Origin: Ylistrum balloti
Lineage: Eukaryota
Assembly: GCF_031769215.1 (NCBI RefSeq)
Contig: NW_026782663.1
Span: 62,001 to 126,000, forward strand
Reading direction: 5' to 3'
DNA: 64,000 nucleotides
In this document: positions 35,301 to 41,300 of the stretch, one piece after another
How the letters are laid out: each line of letters starts with the position of its first letter
Numbering within the stretch: the first letter of the stretch is position 1
Made by a program: the position numbers

Positions 35301-38300
35301 CTATCATCCATTTCTAAAATCCTTTTAGTCAAATTTGTAATTATACCTCTGGTCACTCTGATTGTGTATTGTGGGTCATCTTTAACGGACACAGTTTTGT
35401 CACCATCTTCACCATCTTTTTCCTCATCTGAGTCAGCTGGTCGGATCATGGAAGCTGTGCGGAAGTTCACTTTTGATGAATACGTTGTTTTCTCATGCAC
35501 ATGTAATCCTCTTTGTCGTAGTCTTTCCTGTAGACCAAATATTATGTCTTTTATTTTGGATTAAAAATCAATATTAATTGTTACTGGTTTAAAAATAAAG
35601 CTCATAAATTTTTTTTCCATATTTATACAATATCAATTATCATTAAGGCAATTAAACAAGTGAATTTTAAAAAGAGCAGCATACAAAAGTTGTAACCAAA
35701 TACAGCTTATGGACCAGTGGCATAAAATGCTATGTATATTTCCTTATAAAGCTCCTGCTAATGAGTTTGAGTTAACATGCCTTGTTGTATTTACACACCA
35801 TTTTTCTCAAAAAATACATAACTAATCTTTAAAAAATAAATGGTAGCAGACAACTAAATAATTTTCAAAATGAACATGCTATGCTAAGTGTTTACTTTTG
35901 ATATATTTGAAATAAGATACATGTTTAAGATATTTAATTTGAAAATTTAAGAATATCACCCTCATTTTGTATATACACAGTACCTGCTTTTTTCTTTGTC
36001 GCTCCTTGTCTCGCAAAACAAAGATGTCACTATCTGGGGCCATCTTGAATGGGTTCCCTTGTGTGCCTGGGTCATCCACTGTAAAATATTTTATTAAAAT
36101 AATTTTTTTCATTTTCTGAAATCTGAAATATGTCATTTTAAAATTTGTGATAGATCGCGCTAATTATAGTTCCTAAATAAAATGACTAAATCATGTATTT
36201 CGTTTAAAAAATAAACTTAGTTTCCCATTTGGTGTGTTTATATAAAGCCTTGTAGAGAAGATATTTCTGATATTCTCACAAAATAAAAACAAATATATTT
36301 TTCACAGGCGAAAAAAAGCAAAATATTGTTTAATGTAGTCATCCTTCACATTGGACAGTGAGTATTTCTTAAAAATTCACCAAGCAACAAAACTAGAACT
36401 TCATATTCTGTTTCATTTATTTATCAATGAGAAAAATATATTGGCATTGGTGCATGTGTTAGGTATCATTGTCAATTGTGTTATGAAATAAGATAACAAG
36501 ATTTTATTCTATTCATTATTTTCACTGTAAATGTGGCTCTTTGATCTGTACTTATTTTCACATTGAAATATACAACATAGCTTACAATTATGCTACTTTA
36601 AAATCCATAAAGATATTGGGAAATGGAACAATAAATAAATAAAACAATTAATTTATCAAAAAGCATAGCAATCTCATACCTGACATTATGGAACGACTTG
36701 ATCCAGATTTTGCTGAGTTAGGAAAGGTTACCCGTCCTGATTGTCCAGAAATAGCTTGCCCTAAAACACAAGAATTTACTTAGCAGTCGGTATATTTAGA
36801 TGTGCTTGCAAGCAAAATCGGATTGAAAAATTGTATCACCTAACAAATCAATGCAAAAATAGTAGCAAAATATTTAACAATTCACCATTCACTTGATAAA
36901 ATCCTGCATGTACTCTTGATTCTTAGGAATATTGTTTTGATAAATATTATCATGGACAGATTGTACAGGTTGCCATACAGCATTAGCCTTTGGGGTGATG
37001 CTGTTTAACTTAGTCCAAAGGGTTCTGACTCTATCCGTGAATTTTTTTCTTGGTCGCAATCAATAGATTATTGATCGCGACAGAAAATAAAATTACTAGA
37101 TAGCTAGAATCCTTCTGACCAGTTAAATTCCCATCACGAGGAAGGGTATAATTTGTCGTTCCTTCCTAAGAGTATGAGTCCGTGTTATTGTAGTTAACAT
37201 CATGGAATGACCTTATATTTTTTGTTTTGTTTTCTTTACTCCTTATTTCATCCCCTAATTACTCACGTGATTTTTTGCCTGAAGCATCTGTATCTGGAGA
37301 TCCAGCATTGGACCTGTTGGGTGAGTCAGCCATGATGTTAATTTCGTTTAAGCCAGATCTGTAAACAAGAACAAATTGAAATGAAATTCGTCTCATATCA
37401 TGTACATGTATTAAAGTATTTATATTGCAAAAGCTATTACATGTGAAGTGTATCTTGATATTGTATAGATAGACTCACACTGTAAGCCATACATAACGTC
37501 TCTGTTGTATTATTCACTTAAATGTTTCTACAATTGTACATGTTCAGTAAGGCACACAAATGTGTGCATTTAATGCATGGTGCCGAAGGCGTGTTTCTTT
37601 GACTATTTTGTTCTGTTAATCTGTTTAAATGTTATGGCATTAAGGAGACGATATAAATTAACAACATAACAACAGTTCAGTACATTTTGAATTAGCAAAC
37701 GACGATCGTCAAAGATTACATTTATGTCTCACCTGACAAGTAAGAAACGGGAAAACGATTCCTTGTTTTCCCTTCAGATTCTGTTTACAATTTCCGTGGC
37801 AACATCATCTACGTCTACAAAACGCTTTGAATCGTAACAATTTTAAAACGCTCAGCGGATGTTGATGTCATATACTGGAAGGGTACGTAACTCTTCGTGC
37901 ATTAAGGTAACACATCCTTATTGACATTAAGGACAGACGTGAGCTGTACTACAGTGTACATGTGTACATTTATGGAAAGGAAATGTAATCATTTTAAGCA
38001 AAATATATTTCAATACCGACAGACAGATTAGATAGACCTTAAAATCAACATAAAATTTAGTTAGTTTAGATTTAAAAAACCAAGTTAATTTTTTTATTAA
38101 CTGTTACTAATGAGTTGATTTTTACAAATTAAGTTTAGTTTATTAAACTGAGTAAAGTTAAGTCAATCTCAGTTCAGTGCAGTTTAATACTTGTACCGGA
38201 CTTACAAATGTTCTCTTTAATAGACTGTACATACCCAATCAATGAAATATAGTCATATCTGGCCACGTTTACGTAAAGACTGAATTTGTGCAGGTTTATT

Positions 38301-41300
38301 TCATGTTTGTAAAGGGTTTACATTGCCCGGATGCTTTTTCAGGTAAATTATTCAAAATACCTCTTGTTACAGTTTTATTGAAACATGATATGAAAAATGT
38401 GCCAGTTGTATCCCGGTGTGATTAAAATTGAATTTCATGTTTATTAAAGAATGATTTTTCTTTTGTTAAAAATGACATCATATGTGACATATGCAATGAT
38501 GTGTTAATACTCAGATAGATTATAGAATATGTCATGTGATCATAAAGAGCCGTGTTAAGATATCTGAATTACACGAAAGAAGGGCCAAAACTCCGACAGT
38601 ACACACATTGACGTCATCGAGGTAAATCCTGCTTATATCTCAGAATGACAATTTAGTCACCTACTGATTTTAAATCGATCAGAAAATGAAAGTCTATCAC
38701 TATTACTGATTTGCCATAATGATATGATATGTTCACGATAACGTTGTCAGATTTGAAGGTGAAATGTACTAATTTTAGGCACCTGAAAACCAGAAAATTC
38801 AATTAATTCCTGTCTAATGTCGATTGAAGATTCAAAATAACAACTAGTTAGATGGCGGACAAAAGTTAGATAACTATAGCCATGCAATGTGTAGATGTAG
38901 TGATGATCACTTTGGCTCCAGTAGGTCATAGTGCAGGACATCTAGCCACACACTGAAGAAGATGTCCCCAGTTATACTAATTTAAGTCCCACTTAGATCC
39001 CTAGGTCAATAAAAAATAAAATAAAATAAAGTTGTATGTTTTATATGGTGAGAAATTCGGACTATCGACCACGACCAAAACAAAAATGAAATCGCCGATA
39101 GATAATCAGAACCCTTCGAACTTGATAAATATATCATAATTCACACATGCAACAATTACAAATACCTGACATATGGGCATAATTATATCCTAATTAATAT
39201 GTGATGCTTGAGCAAACATTAATTAAATAAATAATCCCTAACTACCGACCATTTCTGTTAGAAACCGGAACTTTTTTTTTCTATTTTTGTTTTGTTTTTT
39301 TTTTCTGCTTAGAAAAGGTCCTTTCTCAACATTTCGGCACGAATCGTAATAAATAGTTAATGCCATATTGACTTTGTGGAAACTTGTTAAAATATCTGGC
39401 GATTTTTTTTTTTGTAAATTGTCCTCTGACATGCTTGTTTGGTTTTTGTTTGTATTTTTCCTCATTATTGAATTCTGCCTCACATTTATGACATTTGTCC
39501 TTTTTGATCTGGTATAATTGTGTATAGCTAATATATGTCATATCTCCGATCACCATTTGTGATTTACCTTCAGCATAATGAATACCCACATCATAGATAA
39601 ACATTTACTAGAAATCACAATCATGAAATGGAACTGAAATACGCAAATCTAGTATTAAAATCAGCTACACCCAACCCCACTTATCAAGGAAATCAAGATC
39701 TATATTTAGATATGATGATGAGAGATGTGCCATCCGTAGAAGTTCTGAAATCTGAATATTTCCGAATCATTTAATCATCAAAATCGTAACAGTATGACTA
39801 ACACTAAAATACTGTTGATATGTCACGGGCCACGAAAATGTGTGTGTTTCTTTATCCAGCTGAATCATTTGGCACAAACCACACTGATGTACAAAACCAC
39901 ACTAGGAGACATACTTGGCCAATGCAATGTACATTTCAAGTTTAAGGTGAGATTTGTGAGGGCAGTGACCGTCGTGTCAACAAATCAGATAAATTGCGGT
40001 CTTTGGTCATCATGATCTATTTTTAGCATGACAGCCTTTCGCTGGCCTTTTTATTATTGTTGATTACCAGTTACGACTCACTCATCATGTAGAATTAGCT
40101 TCCTACCAGTAAGCTTTATTTTCTGAATCTAGTATTGTCTAGCTTTAAAAAAAAACGCCACTATCTTTTGCCCCTGTTTTTATTCTTTCTCCTTCACTCC
40201 CCAAACCCCTTCTATGATAACACGTCTTACGTCATCACGAAATCCGAACTTCGTAATAGTAGATAAAAGAGGGAGTAGAACCGCGTAGTTTTAAGATCGA
40301 CCTTTCAAGGTTATCGGGAGCTTATCTCGACTAACCGACTTACCACATGTTTATAAACAACCCATTACACTGAAATCGGCATGTCTGACGTAAGGCTCAT
40401 CGTCAAGAATGCTCGCCAGGTGGTGCAGGTGAGGAAGTACCCCGTCCTGAAGGTATGTGGAGAAGGGATGCAACGGGTAGACACACTGCAAGAGGAAGGT
40501 GGAGACGGGATCAGTGTCGTGTCAAACAGGTACTTTATCGGTTAGAGGGGTCAGACGGTTAAACTATCAAATATCAAGTGAATCACTGGCGTAACTAAAA
40601 TTCAGGAAATTATTCGGTTTTTTTTTTGCATTTTCATATTCAACAGCTTAACTTATCAAAACTGCGCTCCTTTCACAATTTCTTTAGGTAATATAAAGCT
40701 GTGACAGATACTTTATTTGTCTTGTATACGAGTCACTTTCCTTGAGTTGTGTCTGTAGATGTTTCATCAGAGGAAAATATCCCTTTCATTTGGTTATTGA
40801 CTTGAATATGATAATTTTATAACACGTTTTACAACAGTTCAGAGTTTTTTGGAGATCTGTACTTACTTAACTTGAATTTCAATATCGTTTATCATTTCAA
40901 TGACAGCTGTTGCATAACGTGTTCTTTTCATTATTTCAAATTTTGAATTCAGTTGTGGAAAGATCATATTTATTGGTAAAGAATCAGAGCGGAAACAGAA
41001 ATACATCGAGAGTGAGAGTACCCGTATCATAGATGCTTCTGGGAAATGCGTGTTGCCAGGTAATGTAAACATTCCAGTGACGACAAATGTTGCTTTCTTC
41101 AGACGACAGTACAGGACGTAACTGCTAAGGTAACGTGATAAAAACAGCCAAATACTGCATGTAACAAATGAACTTCATTTTAAACGTACCAAAAAGGACC
41201 CATGGGAAGTGTAAATCACCGGCCATTGATGATTATATCCTCACTGCTATTGCTGGAATAAATCTGCTACATGTATTTTTGCTGTATTTGGCAATGACGG

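What the first reader, a model, noticed from the sequence alone, without database searches (positions are those of the whole stretch)
37333..40381. Head-to-head CFAP100/CCDC38-AMDHD1 pair mirrors the human CCDC38-AMDHD1 arrangement
Seen: the DUF4200-family gene (-) and AMDHD1 (+) diverge from a shared interval of about 2.6 kb with no gene between them. Recalled, not looked up: human CCDC38, the paralog of CFAP100, lies immediately head-to-head with AMDHD1 at 12q23. Inference: this divergent pair may date from the protostome-deuterostome ancestor. That would imply a shared regulatory constraint between a ciliary axoneme gene and a histidine-catabolism enzyme, and that CCDC38 kept the ancestral locus after vertebrate duplication.
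Basis: partly seen in the sequence, partly recalled or inferred. Interest (0 to 1): 0.65.

Follow-up and report, generated by a model that had tools for sequence, protein, structure and literature searches.

The report
Divergent cilia gene and AMDHD1 pair
A gene for a ciliary dynein-regulator protein and a gene for a histidine-breakdown enzyme sit head-to-head about 3 kb apart, the same two neighbours as in mammals, and this is most simply an old inherited gene adjacency of an already described kind.

Summary
An intact 8-exon imidazolonepropionase (AMDHD1/HutI) gene runs on the + strand from the ATG at 40381. A FAP100/CFAP100-type DUF4200 gene runs on the - strand from a candidate ATG at 37333 down to about 23560. 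The start codons are 3,047 bp apart, not 2.6 kb. Nothing gene-like lies between them: 0 of 32 ORFs hit Pfam, and there are 0 Rfam, 0 tRNA and 0 repeat families.

The mammalian side is only partly checked. A dog gene list reads SNRPF, CCDC38, AMDHD1, HAL, and a human table puts AMDHD1, HAL and CCDC38 at 12q23.1. Strands in mammals remain recalled.

No eukaryotic genome or protein collection was open. The survey of intermediate phyla, the CFAP100/CCDC38 tree and the source taxon of the window are therefore untested.

The best reading is an inherited 5'-5' microsyntenic pair, a class already described (795 such groups, mostly 5'-5'). The window gives no evidence of shared regulation: two separate CpG maxima lie about 2.5 kb apart and no significant shared motif was found.

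One bolder lead rests on papers and recall. The other paralogue, CFAP100, lies near UROC1, another histidine-catabolism gene, which hints at an older, larger neighbourhood.

The parts
37334..40380 (.). Interval between the two start codons (3,047 bp). No detectable gene.
   Evidence: 0 of 32 ORFs >=35 aa with a Pfam hit. 0 Rfam, 0 tRNA, 0 tandem repeats, no repeat family. Sequence read.
23560..37333 (-). FAP100/CFAP100-type DUF4200 gene (MIA1 type), whole coding span as modelled.
   Evidence: Exon ORFs are collinear with human CFAP100 (PDB 8j07_j4) from residue 47 to 610 of 611. Further exon ORFs were read.
37267..37333 (-). Candidate first coding exon of the DUF4200 gene (ATG at 37333, 22 codons plus 1 base, donor GTGAGT).
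   Evidence: Sequence. Ends corrected from the hexamers printed. The phase fits the next exon. There is no homology support. An AG acceptor just upstream (about 37361) suggests a further 5' non-coding exon.
36680..36760 (-). Possible 81-nt cassette exon (phase 1 to 1, Ser/Gly-rich).
   Evidence: Acceptor TTTTAG and donor GTATGA seen, length. No Pfam hit. Unverified.
35984..36078 (-). Exon with the N-terminal Asn-Pro-Phe motif. It begins at an acceptor, so an upstream coding exon is needed.
   Evidence: Weak PDB matches to Chlamydomonas FAP100 residues 22-61 (E 0.057) and human CFAP100 residues 47-73 (E 0.14). Splice sites read.
35291..35560 (-). ORF holding the next exon.
   Evidence: Human CFAP100 residues 73-112, E 0.01.
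34678..34845 (-). ORF holding an exon with the first half of the DUF4200 domain.
   Evidence: PF13863, E 1.8e-12, 48.1 bits, profile positions 14-66 of 119.
34345..34569 (-). ORF holding an exon with the second half of the DUF4200 domain.
   Evidence: PF13863, E 2.2e-14, profile positions 67-119. PDB CFAP100 8j07_j4 3e-12, CCDC37 9fqr 2.5e-11, FAP100 8glv 5.2e-9.
32108..32359 (-). ORF holding a highly conserved mid-protein exon.
   Evidence: Human CFAP100 residues 379-429, E 4.9e-15.
23563..23676 (-). ORF holding the last coding exon.
   Evidence: Human CFAP100 residues 576-610 of 611, E 0.0064.
40381..44898 (+). Imidazolonepropionase (AMDHD1/HutI) gene: 8 coding exons and 430 codons. Exons are 40381-40529, 40953-41059, 41768-41832, 42384-42661, 43172-43397, 43827-44045, 44317-44477 and 44811-44895, with the stop at 44896-44898.
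   Evidence: hutI equivalog hits per exon. HutI structures. Junctions read or computed. Exon lengths sum to 1,290 nt (my arithmetic). Six introns are GT-AG and one is GC-AG (donor at 44478).
41768..41832 (+). Small AMDHD1 exon carrying the His-x-His metal-binding motif.
   Evidence: Read from the sequence. By gapless extension of the alignment the two His fall at HutI chain positions 80 and 82. That these are the metal ligands is recalled.
44098..44225 (.). Run of 128 N inside AMDHD1 intron 6. Left as it is.
   Evidence: The flanking exons cover hutI model positions 228-303 and 302-359, so no coding exon need be hidden.
37790..37803 (+). X-box-like 14-mer, 12 of 14 to a recalled RFX consensus, about 460 bp upstream of the DUF4200 ATG. 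A lead only.
   Evidence: one of 17 window matches against 18.3 expected by chance.
40227..40234 (-). CRE-like octamer about 150 bp upstream of the AMDHD1 ATG. A second, palindromic one lies at 38609-38616.
   Evidence: 13 matches in the window against 2.76 expected, with 0 of 100 shuffles reaching 13. The flanks are unrelated.

Best explanation
This is an inherited 5'-5' (divergent) neighbour pair. A single FAP100/CFAP100-type axonemal gene and the imidazolonepropionase gene AMDHD1 were already adjacent in a common ancestor of this animal and of mammals, where the same neighbours appear as CCDC38 and AMDHD1.

Shown:
- Both genes are intact and divergent, with nothing detectable between them.
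- The same two gene families are consecutive in a dog gene list and share band 12q23.1 in a human table.

Inferred:
- Common descent of the adjacency.
- The retention mechanism. Given common descent, I rate it at about 55:45 that the pair survives because the promoter-proximal control DNA of both genes is packed into the same ~3 kb, so a break there damages at least one gene. The alternative is plain neutral survival of a short interval.
- That the two genes have separate promoters about 2.5 kb apart rather than one bidirectional promoter, and need not be co-expressed.
For: Gene identities and integrity. Empty interval.

Mammalian neighbours: dog chr15 list '...NTN4, SNRPF, CCDC38, AMDHD1, HAL, LTA4H...' (PMC13332154). 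Two further dog region lists hold the same genes. Human 12q23.1 holds AMDHD1, HAL and CCDC38.

CCDC37 and CCDC38 are named as the two potential human homologues of FAP100 (PMC3628515).

The class is established. There are 795 conserved microsyntenic groups across metazoans. 54.8% of human pairs are 5'-5' against 26.7% of controls, and that orientation is preferentially kept (PMC3514665, passages).

My own arithmetic, from no call: for unrelated gene orders of about 20,000 genes, a named gene has a named neighbour with probability about 1e-4. Across the roughly 5 adjacencies of this window and two human paralogues, that is about 1e-3.

Two separate CpG o/e maxima lie at 37500-38250 (about 1.0) and 40000-40750 (0.9-1.0), against 0.61 for the window.
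Against: - Strands in mammals are recalled, not checked.
- The gene order in the dog list is assumed to be map order.
- The source taxon is unknown, so the depth of the shared ancestor is unknown.
- No intermediate lineage was examined.
- The first coding exon of the - gene lacks homology support. If the true start were in the next exon, the interval would be about 4.3 kb.
- No conserved or shared regulatory element was shown. X-box-like matches are at chance level, 2 against 2.53 and 17 against 18.3 expected.
- Drosophila has no FAP100 orthologue (PMC6367277), so the pair is necessarily absent from at least that lineage.
Confidence: 0.6

Rival explanations
1. One shared, bidirectional regulatory region co-regulates the ciliary gene and the histidine-catabolism gene, and that co-regulation is what preserves the pair.
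For: 5'-5' conserved pairs are enriched for co-expression and for very short (<1 kb) intergenic distances (PMC3514665). CRE-like octamers are over-represented in the window, 13 against 2.76 expected, and two lie in the interval.
Against: The start codons are 3,047 bp apart and there are two separate CpG o/e maxima. No X-box lies in the interval at <=1 mismatch. The CRE-like sites are spread over the whole window, including coding exons, and have unrelated flanks. The two functions, axonemal dynein regulation and a catabolic enzyme, give no reason for co-expression. That mammalian CCDC38 is testis-enriched and AMDHD1 liver-enriched is recalled.
Confidence: 0.15
2. The adjacency is ancestral but neutral. 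The interval is short, so breaks in it are rare, and slowly rearranging genomes simply have not separated the genes. No regulatory constraint exists.
For: The interval is small (3 kb) in a compact locus. No shared element was found.
Against: Conserved pairs exceed neutral expectation and are biased to 5'-5'. A purely neutral model does not predict that bias.
Confidence: 0.28
3. Coincidence. The two adjacencies arose independently in this lineage and in vertebrates.
For: Only two lineages are in evidence. Roughly two shared adjacencies are expected genome-wide between fully scrambled gene orders (my arithmetic).
Against: For the few adjacencies of one window the chance is about 1e-3 (my arithmetic), and lower still if the orientation also matches.
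Confidence: 0.06

Closest known systems
Mammalian CCDC38-AMDHD1-HAL locus (human 12q23.1, dog chr15)
   Same: A FAP100-type DUF4200 gene lies immediately beside AMDHD1 (dog list; human band). Divergent orientation is recalled.
   Different: Here the DUF4200 gene resembles CFAP100 along its whole length. CCDC38 itself could not be compared. No HAL follows AMDHD1: 0 of 72 ORFs in 44900-55780 hit Pfam, and no Lyase_aromatic hit appears among 144 further ORFs. The scale is kilobases rather than tens of kilobases (recalled for human).
Conserved ancestral microsyntenic pairs (CAMPs) of Irimia et al. 2012, e.g. HSPE1-HSPD1
   Same: Unrelated genes that are adjacent, 5'-5', and apparently kept over very long times.
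   Different: This pair is not named in the main text of that paper: 0 occurrences of AMDHD1 or CCDC38. Its supplementary list could not be opened. Conservation is in evidence for only two lineages here.
Bidirectional-promoter gene pairs (transcription starts <1 kb apart)
   Same: Head-to-head arrangement with no gene between.
   Different: Start codons are 3,047 bp apart with two CpG o/e maxima about 2.5 kb apart. The transcription starts are unknown.
Bacterial hut operons (hutH, hutU, hutI together)
   Same: Relevant only to the bolder reading. In mammals, histidine-catabolism genes lie near each other and near both FAP100-type paralogues (plus recall).
   Different: These are eukaryotic genes with their own promoters. 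In this window AMDHD1 is the only pathway gene.

Membership tests
Imidazolonepropionase (HutI / AMDHD1; NCBIfam TIGR01224) | Match to the hutI equivalog model over its length | tested here: met
   4 of 6 exon ORFs hit, covering model positions 59-155, 169-228, 228-303 and 302-359 of 377, at 127.3, 54.9, 79.7 and 54.9 bits. Each exon alone is below the whole-protein cut-off of 298.15, because exons were searched singly. The joined protein was not searched.
Imidazolonepropionase (HutI / AMDHD1; NCBIfam TIGR01224) | His-x-His metal-binding motif of the amidohydrolase fold | tested here: met
   Present in exon 41768-41832. It falls at HutI 2bb0 positions 80 and 82 by extension of the alignment. 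The ligand numbering is recalled.
Imidazolonepropionase (HutI / AMDHD1; NCBIfam TIGR01224) | Open, spliceable reading frame | tested here: met
   8 exons and 1,290 nt with no internal stop. Six introns are GT-AG and one is GC-AG.
Imidazolonepropionase (HutI / AMDHD1; NCBIfam TIGR01224) | Hydrolysis of 4-imidazolone-5-propionate | not testable with these tools
   Needs an enzyme assay.
DUF4200 proteins, FAP100/MIA1 branch (CFAP100, CCDC38) | DUF4200 domain above Pfam's gathering score | tested here: met
   PF13863 at 48.1 and 54.3 bits against 29.7, on two consecutive exons that together cover profile positions 14-119.
DUF4200 proteins, FAP100/MIA1 branch (CFAP100, CCDC38) | Collinear with FAP100/CFAP100 from N- to C-terminus, and closer to these than to the FAP73/CCDC42 branch | tested here: met
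   Human CFAP100 residues 47-73, 73-112, 217-269, 379-429 and 576-610 are matched in order. The top hits in all five searches are CFAP100, CCDC37 or FAP100. No listed row is named CFAP73 or CCDC42. Whether the PDB copy holds those chains was not checked.
DUF4200 proteins, FAP100/MIA1 branch (CFAP100, CCDC38) | Orthology to CCDC38, to CFAP100, or to both (pre-duplication gene) | not testable with these tools
   No CCDC38 sequence was reachable. No listed row in any of the five PDB searches of DUF4200-gene exons is named CCDC38. The protein databases were closed. The Atlas gave no usable hit.
Conserved ancestral microsyntenic pair (Irimia et al. 2012) | Orthologues adjacent, with no gene between, in distant lineages | tested here: inconclusive
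   Met in the window. For mammals only a dog list order and a human band are available. No other phylum could be examined.
Conserved ancestral microsyntenic pair (Irimia et al. 2012) | Orientation (5'-5') conserved | not tested
   The window is 5'-5'. Mammalian strands are recalled only.
Bidirectional-promoter pair | Transcription start sites less than 1 kb apart on opposite strands | tested here: inconclusive
   Start codons are 3,047 bp apart and there are two CpG o/e maxima about 2.5 kb apart, which leans against. Transcription starts cannot be located without expression data.

The most novel reading that the evidence does not exclude
The pair is the visible core of an older, larger neighbourhood in which the FAP100-type ciliary gene was embedded among histidine-catabolism genes (AMDHD1, HAL, UROC1).

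After the vertebrate genome duplications the two copies of the region kept complementary parts. CCDC38-AMDHD1-HAL stayed at 12q23.1, and CFAP100-(ZXDC)-UROC1 stayed at 3q21.3. Neither paralogue alone 'kept the ancestral locus'.

Basis from papers:
- A CFAP100 intronic SNP lies about 30 kb from ZXDC in human.
- KLF15, ZXDC, UROC1 and TXNRD3 lie within 90 kb in dog.
- ALDH1L1, CHST13, SLC41A3, TXNRD3, UROC1 and ZXDC lie in one 138-kb interval in cattle.
- TXNRD3, ZXDC, CFAP100 and SLC41A3 are all on dog chr20.

The paralogy of 3q21 with 12q23 (ALDH1L1/2, SLC41A3/2, TXNRD3/1, CHST13/11) is recalled only. A search for a paper listing the chr12 set found none.

Against: this window holds no HAL or UROC1 within 37 kb on one side and 19 kb on the other.
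Probability: 0.3. Interest if true: 0.5.

Novelty: new member of a known kind. Interest (0 to 1): 0.3.

Why it matters
If confirmed across phyla, this would add one more deeply conserved divergent pair of functionally unrelated genes to a class already counted in the hundreds. It would give a clean small locus (3 kb, two compact genes) in which to test whether such pairs are held together by interleaved promoters or merely by chance.

It would also fix the pre-duplication position of the CFAP100/CCDC38 gene. With the UROC1 observation, it would raise the question of why a ciliary dynein regulator has travelled with histidine-catabolism genes.

As it stands it is an ordinary, plausible microsynteny observation, not a new kind of element.

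Tried and rejected
**A hidden gene or mobile element in the interval: rejected.**

**HAL or UROC1 elsewhere in the window: not found.**
- 0 of 72 ORFs >=45 aa in 44900-55780 hit Pfam.
- 144 ORFs >=52 aa in 1-23500 and 55700-64000 were scanned, out of 154. The 10 left out had been scanned singly.
- Among the 144 there were only four single-member hits at E 0.0034-0.0081, which is chance level for 144 queries. None was Lyase_aromatic or Urocanase.

**RFX X-box near the ciliary gene.** The consensus was recalled.
- 2 matches in the window against 2.53 expected at <=1 mismatch, none in the interval.
- 17 against 18.3 expected at <=2 mismatches, one of them at 37790.
- This is not evidence.

**Pfam on AMDHD1 exons.** Only weak Amidohydro_1/3 hits on 2 of 6, below cut-off. 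NCBIfam resolved the identity. AMDHD1 exons 1 and 2 have no specific hit.

**ESM Atlas on the Pfam-negative DUF4200-gene exon 35291-35560.** No usable hit.

**Literature**
- Only 5 papers hold both CCDC38 and AMDHD1. All are region or gene lists, and none describes the arrangement.
- Of the 20 listed papers for AMDHD1 with bidirectional, head-to-head or microsynteny terms, none holds AMDHD1.
- Neither of the 2 papers holding 4 of 5 of the AMDHD1/UROC1/HAL/synteny/gene-cluster terms holds AMDHD1.
- 0 papers list TXNRD1, CHST11, SLC41A2 and ALDH1L2 together.
- A chicken oviduct study names both AMDHD1 and CFAP100, but they change in opposite directions and are not neighbours there. It is irrelevant to linkage.
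- PMC11779644 says nothing on CCDC38.

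
Full report
**What is there**

The window is AT-rich, with G+C of 0.28-0.39 in 2-kb steps. It holds intron-bearing animal-type genes. At the reported coordinates two genes point away from each other.

On the + strand, 40381 is the A of an ATG that opens an imidazolonepropionase (AMDHD1/HutI) gene. The frame is closed by a stop just upstream, since the ORF opens at 40357. On the - strand, 37333 is the A of an ATG in a short candidate first coding exon of a DUF4200 gene. 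The two start codons are separated by 3,047 bp (37334-40380).

**How the models were handled**

The run of 128 N at 44098-44225 was left untouched. The human side of the argument rests on papers and on recall only.

**The + gene**

NCBIfam's hutI equivalog (TIGR01224) hits 4 of 6 exon ORFs:

| Model positions | E-value |
|---|---|
| 59-155 | 6.3e-37 |
| 169-228 | 6.1e-15 |
| 228-303 | 1.8e-22 |
| 302-359 | 6.1e-15 |

The largest exon hits only imidazolonepropionase structures in the PDB, 4 of 4 rows, the best being 2bb0 at 5.8e-23. Pfam alone gave only weak amidohydrolase hits on 2 of 6 exons.

A 65-nt exon at 41768-41832, too short for the ORF lists, carries the His-x-His motif.

Reading the junctions gives eight exons: 40381-40529, 40953-41059, 41768-41832, 42384-42661, 43172-43397, 43827-44045, 44317-44477 and 44811-44895. 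They sum to 1,290 nt, or 430 codons. Six introns are GT-AG and one is GC-AG (donor at 44478).

The N run lies in intron 6. The exons on either side cover adjoining model positions, so no exon need be hidden. The gene looks intact.

**The - gene**

Two consecutive exon ORFs carry the two halves of Pfam DUF4200. These are 34678-34845 at 48.1 bits and 34345-34569 at 54.3 bits, against a cut-off of 29.7. The other 8 of 10 ORFs had no meaningful Pfam hit.

Five exons searched singly against the PDB all have CFAP100, CCDC37 or Chlamydomonas FAP100 on top, and they fall in order along human CFAP100:

| CFAP100 residues | E-value |
|---|---|
| 47-73 | 0.14 (FAP100 0.057) |
| 73-112 | 0.01 |
| 217-269 | 3e-12 |
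| 379-429 | 4.9e-15 |
| 576-610 of 611 | 0.0064 |

The gene therefore runs from about 37333 to about 23560, and it is of the FAP100/MIA1 type. FAP100 is a subunit of the MIA complex, which regulates I1 inner-arm dynein. Its two potential human homologues are given as CCDC37 (now CFAP100) and CCDC38 (PMC3628515, passages). A second paper lists the four human DUF4200 paralogues (PMC6702985, passages).

Whether the window's gene is the orthologue of CFAP100, of CCDC38, or of both could not be tested. No listed row in the five PDB searches of this gene's exons is named CCDC38. The Atlas gave no usable hit.

**The 5' end of the - gene**

This is the softest part of the observation. The exon at 36078-35984 carries the conserved N-terminal motif. 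It starts at a good acceptor and needs one base from an upstream exon.

The candidate at 37333-37267 (22 codons plus 1 base, donor GTGAGT) supplies that base. It would give an N-terminal length like that of Chlamydomonas FAP100, where the motif starts at residue 22. An 81-nt phase-symmetric candidate cassette exon lies at 36760-36680. None of these has homology support.

**The interval**

- 0 of 32 stop-to-stop ORFs of 35 aa or more hit Pfam at E<=0.01.
- The nine longest had given 0 of 9 at E<=0.1.
- Rfam finds nothing at gathering score in the whole window, and nothing at E<=1 in 37200-40500.
- There are no tRNAs and no tandem repeats in the interval.
- None of the window's 11 direct-repeat families touches the interval, and there are no inverted repeats.

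'No gene between them' therefore stands, within the limits of such tests.

**The rest of the window**

- An LLPH gene lies on the + strand at 8444-10072 (PF10169, 6.5e-9 and 1.5e-9).
- An actin-related protein 8 gene lies on the - strand at about 12641-19597 (PDB 4fo0, 1.1e-13).
- A gene with an LDL-receptor class A domain lies on the - strand at about 55777-59203.
- Nothing recognisable lies in the 11 kb after AMDHD1: 0 of 72 ORFs.
- No histidine ammonia-lyase or urocanase domain appears anywhere.

**The mammalian side**

Only five papers in the library hold both CCDC38 and AMDHD1. None discusses the arrangement.

One lists the genes of a dog chr15 segment in what appears to be map order: '...USP44, NTN4, SNRPF, CCDC38, AMDHD1, HAL, LTA4H, ELK3' (PMC13332154, passage). 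Two others list the same genes for overlapping segments. A human table files AMDHD1, HAL and CCDC38 under 12q23.1.

This supports adjacency. It says nothing about strands.

**Chance**

This is my own arithmetic, from no call. With about 20,000 genes and unrelated gene orders, a named gene has a named neighbour with probability about 1e-4. Over the five or so adjacencies of this window and two human paralogues, that is about 1e-3, and lower still if the orientation must match. Common descent is therefore much the likelier explanation, provided the mammalian arrangement is as stated.

**Mechanism**

Conserved pairs of unrelated neighbours are an established class. Irimia et al. report 795 groups across 17 metazoan genomes. 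54.8% of human pairs are 5'-5' against 26.7% of controls, and that orientation is preferentially kept. They argue for shared or entangled cis-regulation (PMC3514665, passages). The main text does not name this pair, and its supplementary list was closed.

In the window itself I find no sign of shared control. CpG observed/expected has two maxima, at 37500-38250 (about 1.0) and at 40000-40750 (0.9-1.0), against 0.61 for the window. This suggests two promoters about 2.5 kb apart.

A recalled RFX X-box consensus gives chance-level counts. The one near-match at 37790-37803 is a lead only.

I therefore favour separate promoters packed into one short interval. Interleaved control DNA is a slightly more likely keeper of the pair than pure neutral survival, and true co-regulation is the least likely.

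**A bolder lead**

Papers place the other paralogue, CFAP100, in the immediate neighbourhood of UROC1, which encodes the second enzyme of the same pathway.

- A CFAP100 intronic SNP lies about 30 kb from ZXDC in human.
- KLF15, ZXDC, UROC1 and TXNRD3 lie within 90 kb in dog.
- ALDH1L1, CHST13, SLC41A3, TXNRD3, UROC1 and ZXDC lie in one 138-kb interval in cattle.
- TXNRD3, ZXDC, CFAP100 and SLC41A3 lie together on dog chr20.

From memory, 3q21 and 12q23 share several duplicate pairs, as expected of regions doubled in early vertebrates. My one search for a paper listing the chr12 set found none.

If this is right, the ancestral region held the ciliary gene among several histidine-catabolism genes, and each vertebrate copy kept part of it. 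The window argues against a tight cluster in this species, because AMDHD1 is its only pathway gene.

**Limits**

The following all stayed unchecked:
- the survey of intermediate phyla
- the family tree
- the source taxon
- transcription starts
- conserved non-coding sequence
- whether the pair is already in a published list

Drosophila is reported to lack a FAP100 orthologue (PMC6367277, table passage), so the pair cannot be universal among protostomes.

**Verdict**

Noticed in passing
window, 11 distinct sites (896, 28439, 30595, 38609, 40227, 40386, 43042, 43199, 52363, 58006, 60738): The CRE/ATF-type octamer TGACGTMA occurs 13 times, with palindromes counted twice, against 2.76 expected. 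0 of 100 dinucleotide-preserving shuffles reach 13. The flanks are unrelated, so it is not a repeat family, and two sites lie in AMDHD1 coding exons. Unexplained.
   Followed up: partly
window 41932-42102: A G-rich imperfect tandem repeat (period 27 or 53, about 6 copies) lies inside AMDHD1 intron 3. It creates long spurious ORFs on both strands.
   Followed up: no
window 44478 (intron 7 of AMDHD1): The only donor that keeps the conserved C-terminal residues in frame is a GC donor (GCAAGG), making this a GC-AG intron. The nearest GT donors would delete conserved sequence.
   Followed up: partly
window 44098-44225: A run of 128 N falls inside AMDHD1 intron 6. The flanking exons cover adjoining hutI model positions, so no coding exon appears to be lost. 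Left untouched.
   Followed up: yes
window 36680-36760 (-): A candidate 81-nt phase-symmetric cassette exon (Ser/Gly-rich) lies between the first two coding exons of the DUF4200 gene. It has good splice sites but no homology support.
   Followed up: partly
window 8444-10072 (+): LLPH (LLP homologue) gene in two exon ORFs, PF10169 at 6.5e-9 and 1.5e-9.
   Followed up: partly
window about 12641-19597 (-): Actin-related protein 8 (INO80 subunit) gene. Exon 14610-14978 matches PDB 4fo0 at 1.1e-13. Pfam found nothing on three of its exons.
   Followed up: partly
window about 55777-59203 (-): A gene with an LDL-receptor class A domain (57161-57439, E 8.2e-5, just under Pfam's cut-off) and a 255-aa open exon at 55777-56541. 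Its identity was not resolved.
   Followed up: no
window 51061-51395 and 52133-52263: Long (AGT)n / (TAG)n microsatellite arrays lie in the gene-poor stretch after AMDHD1.
   Followed up: no
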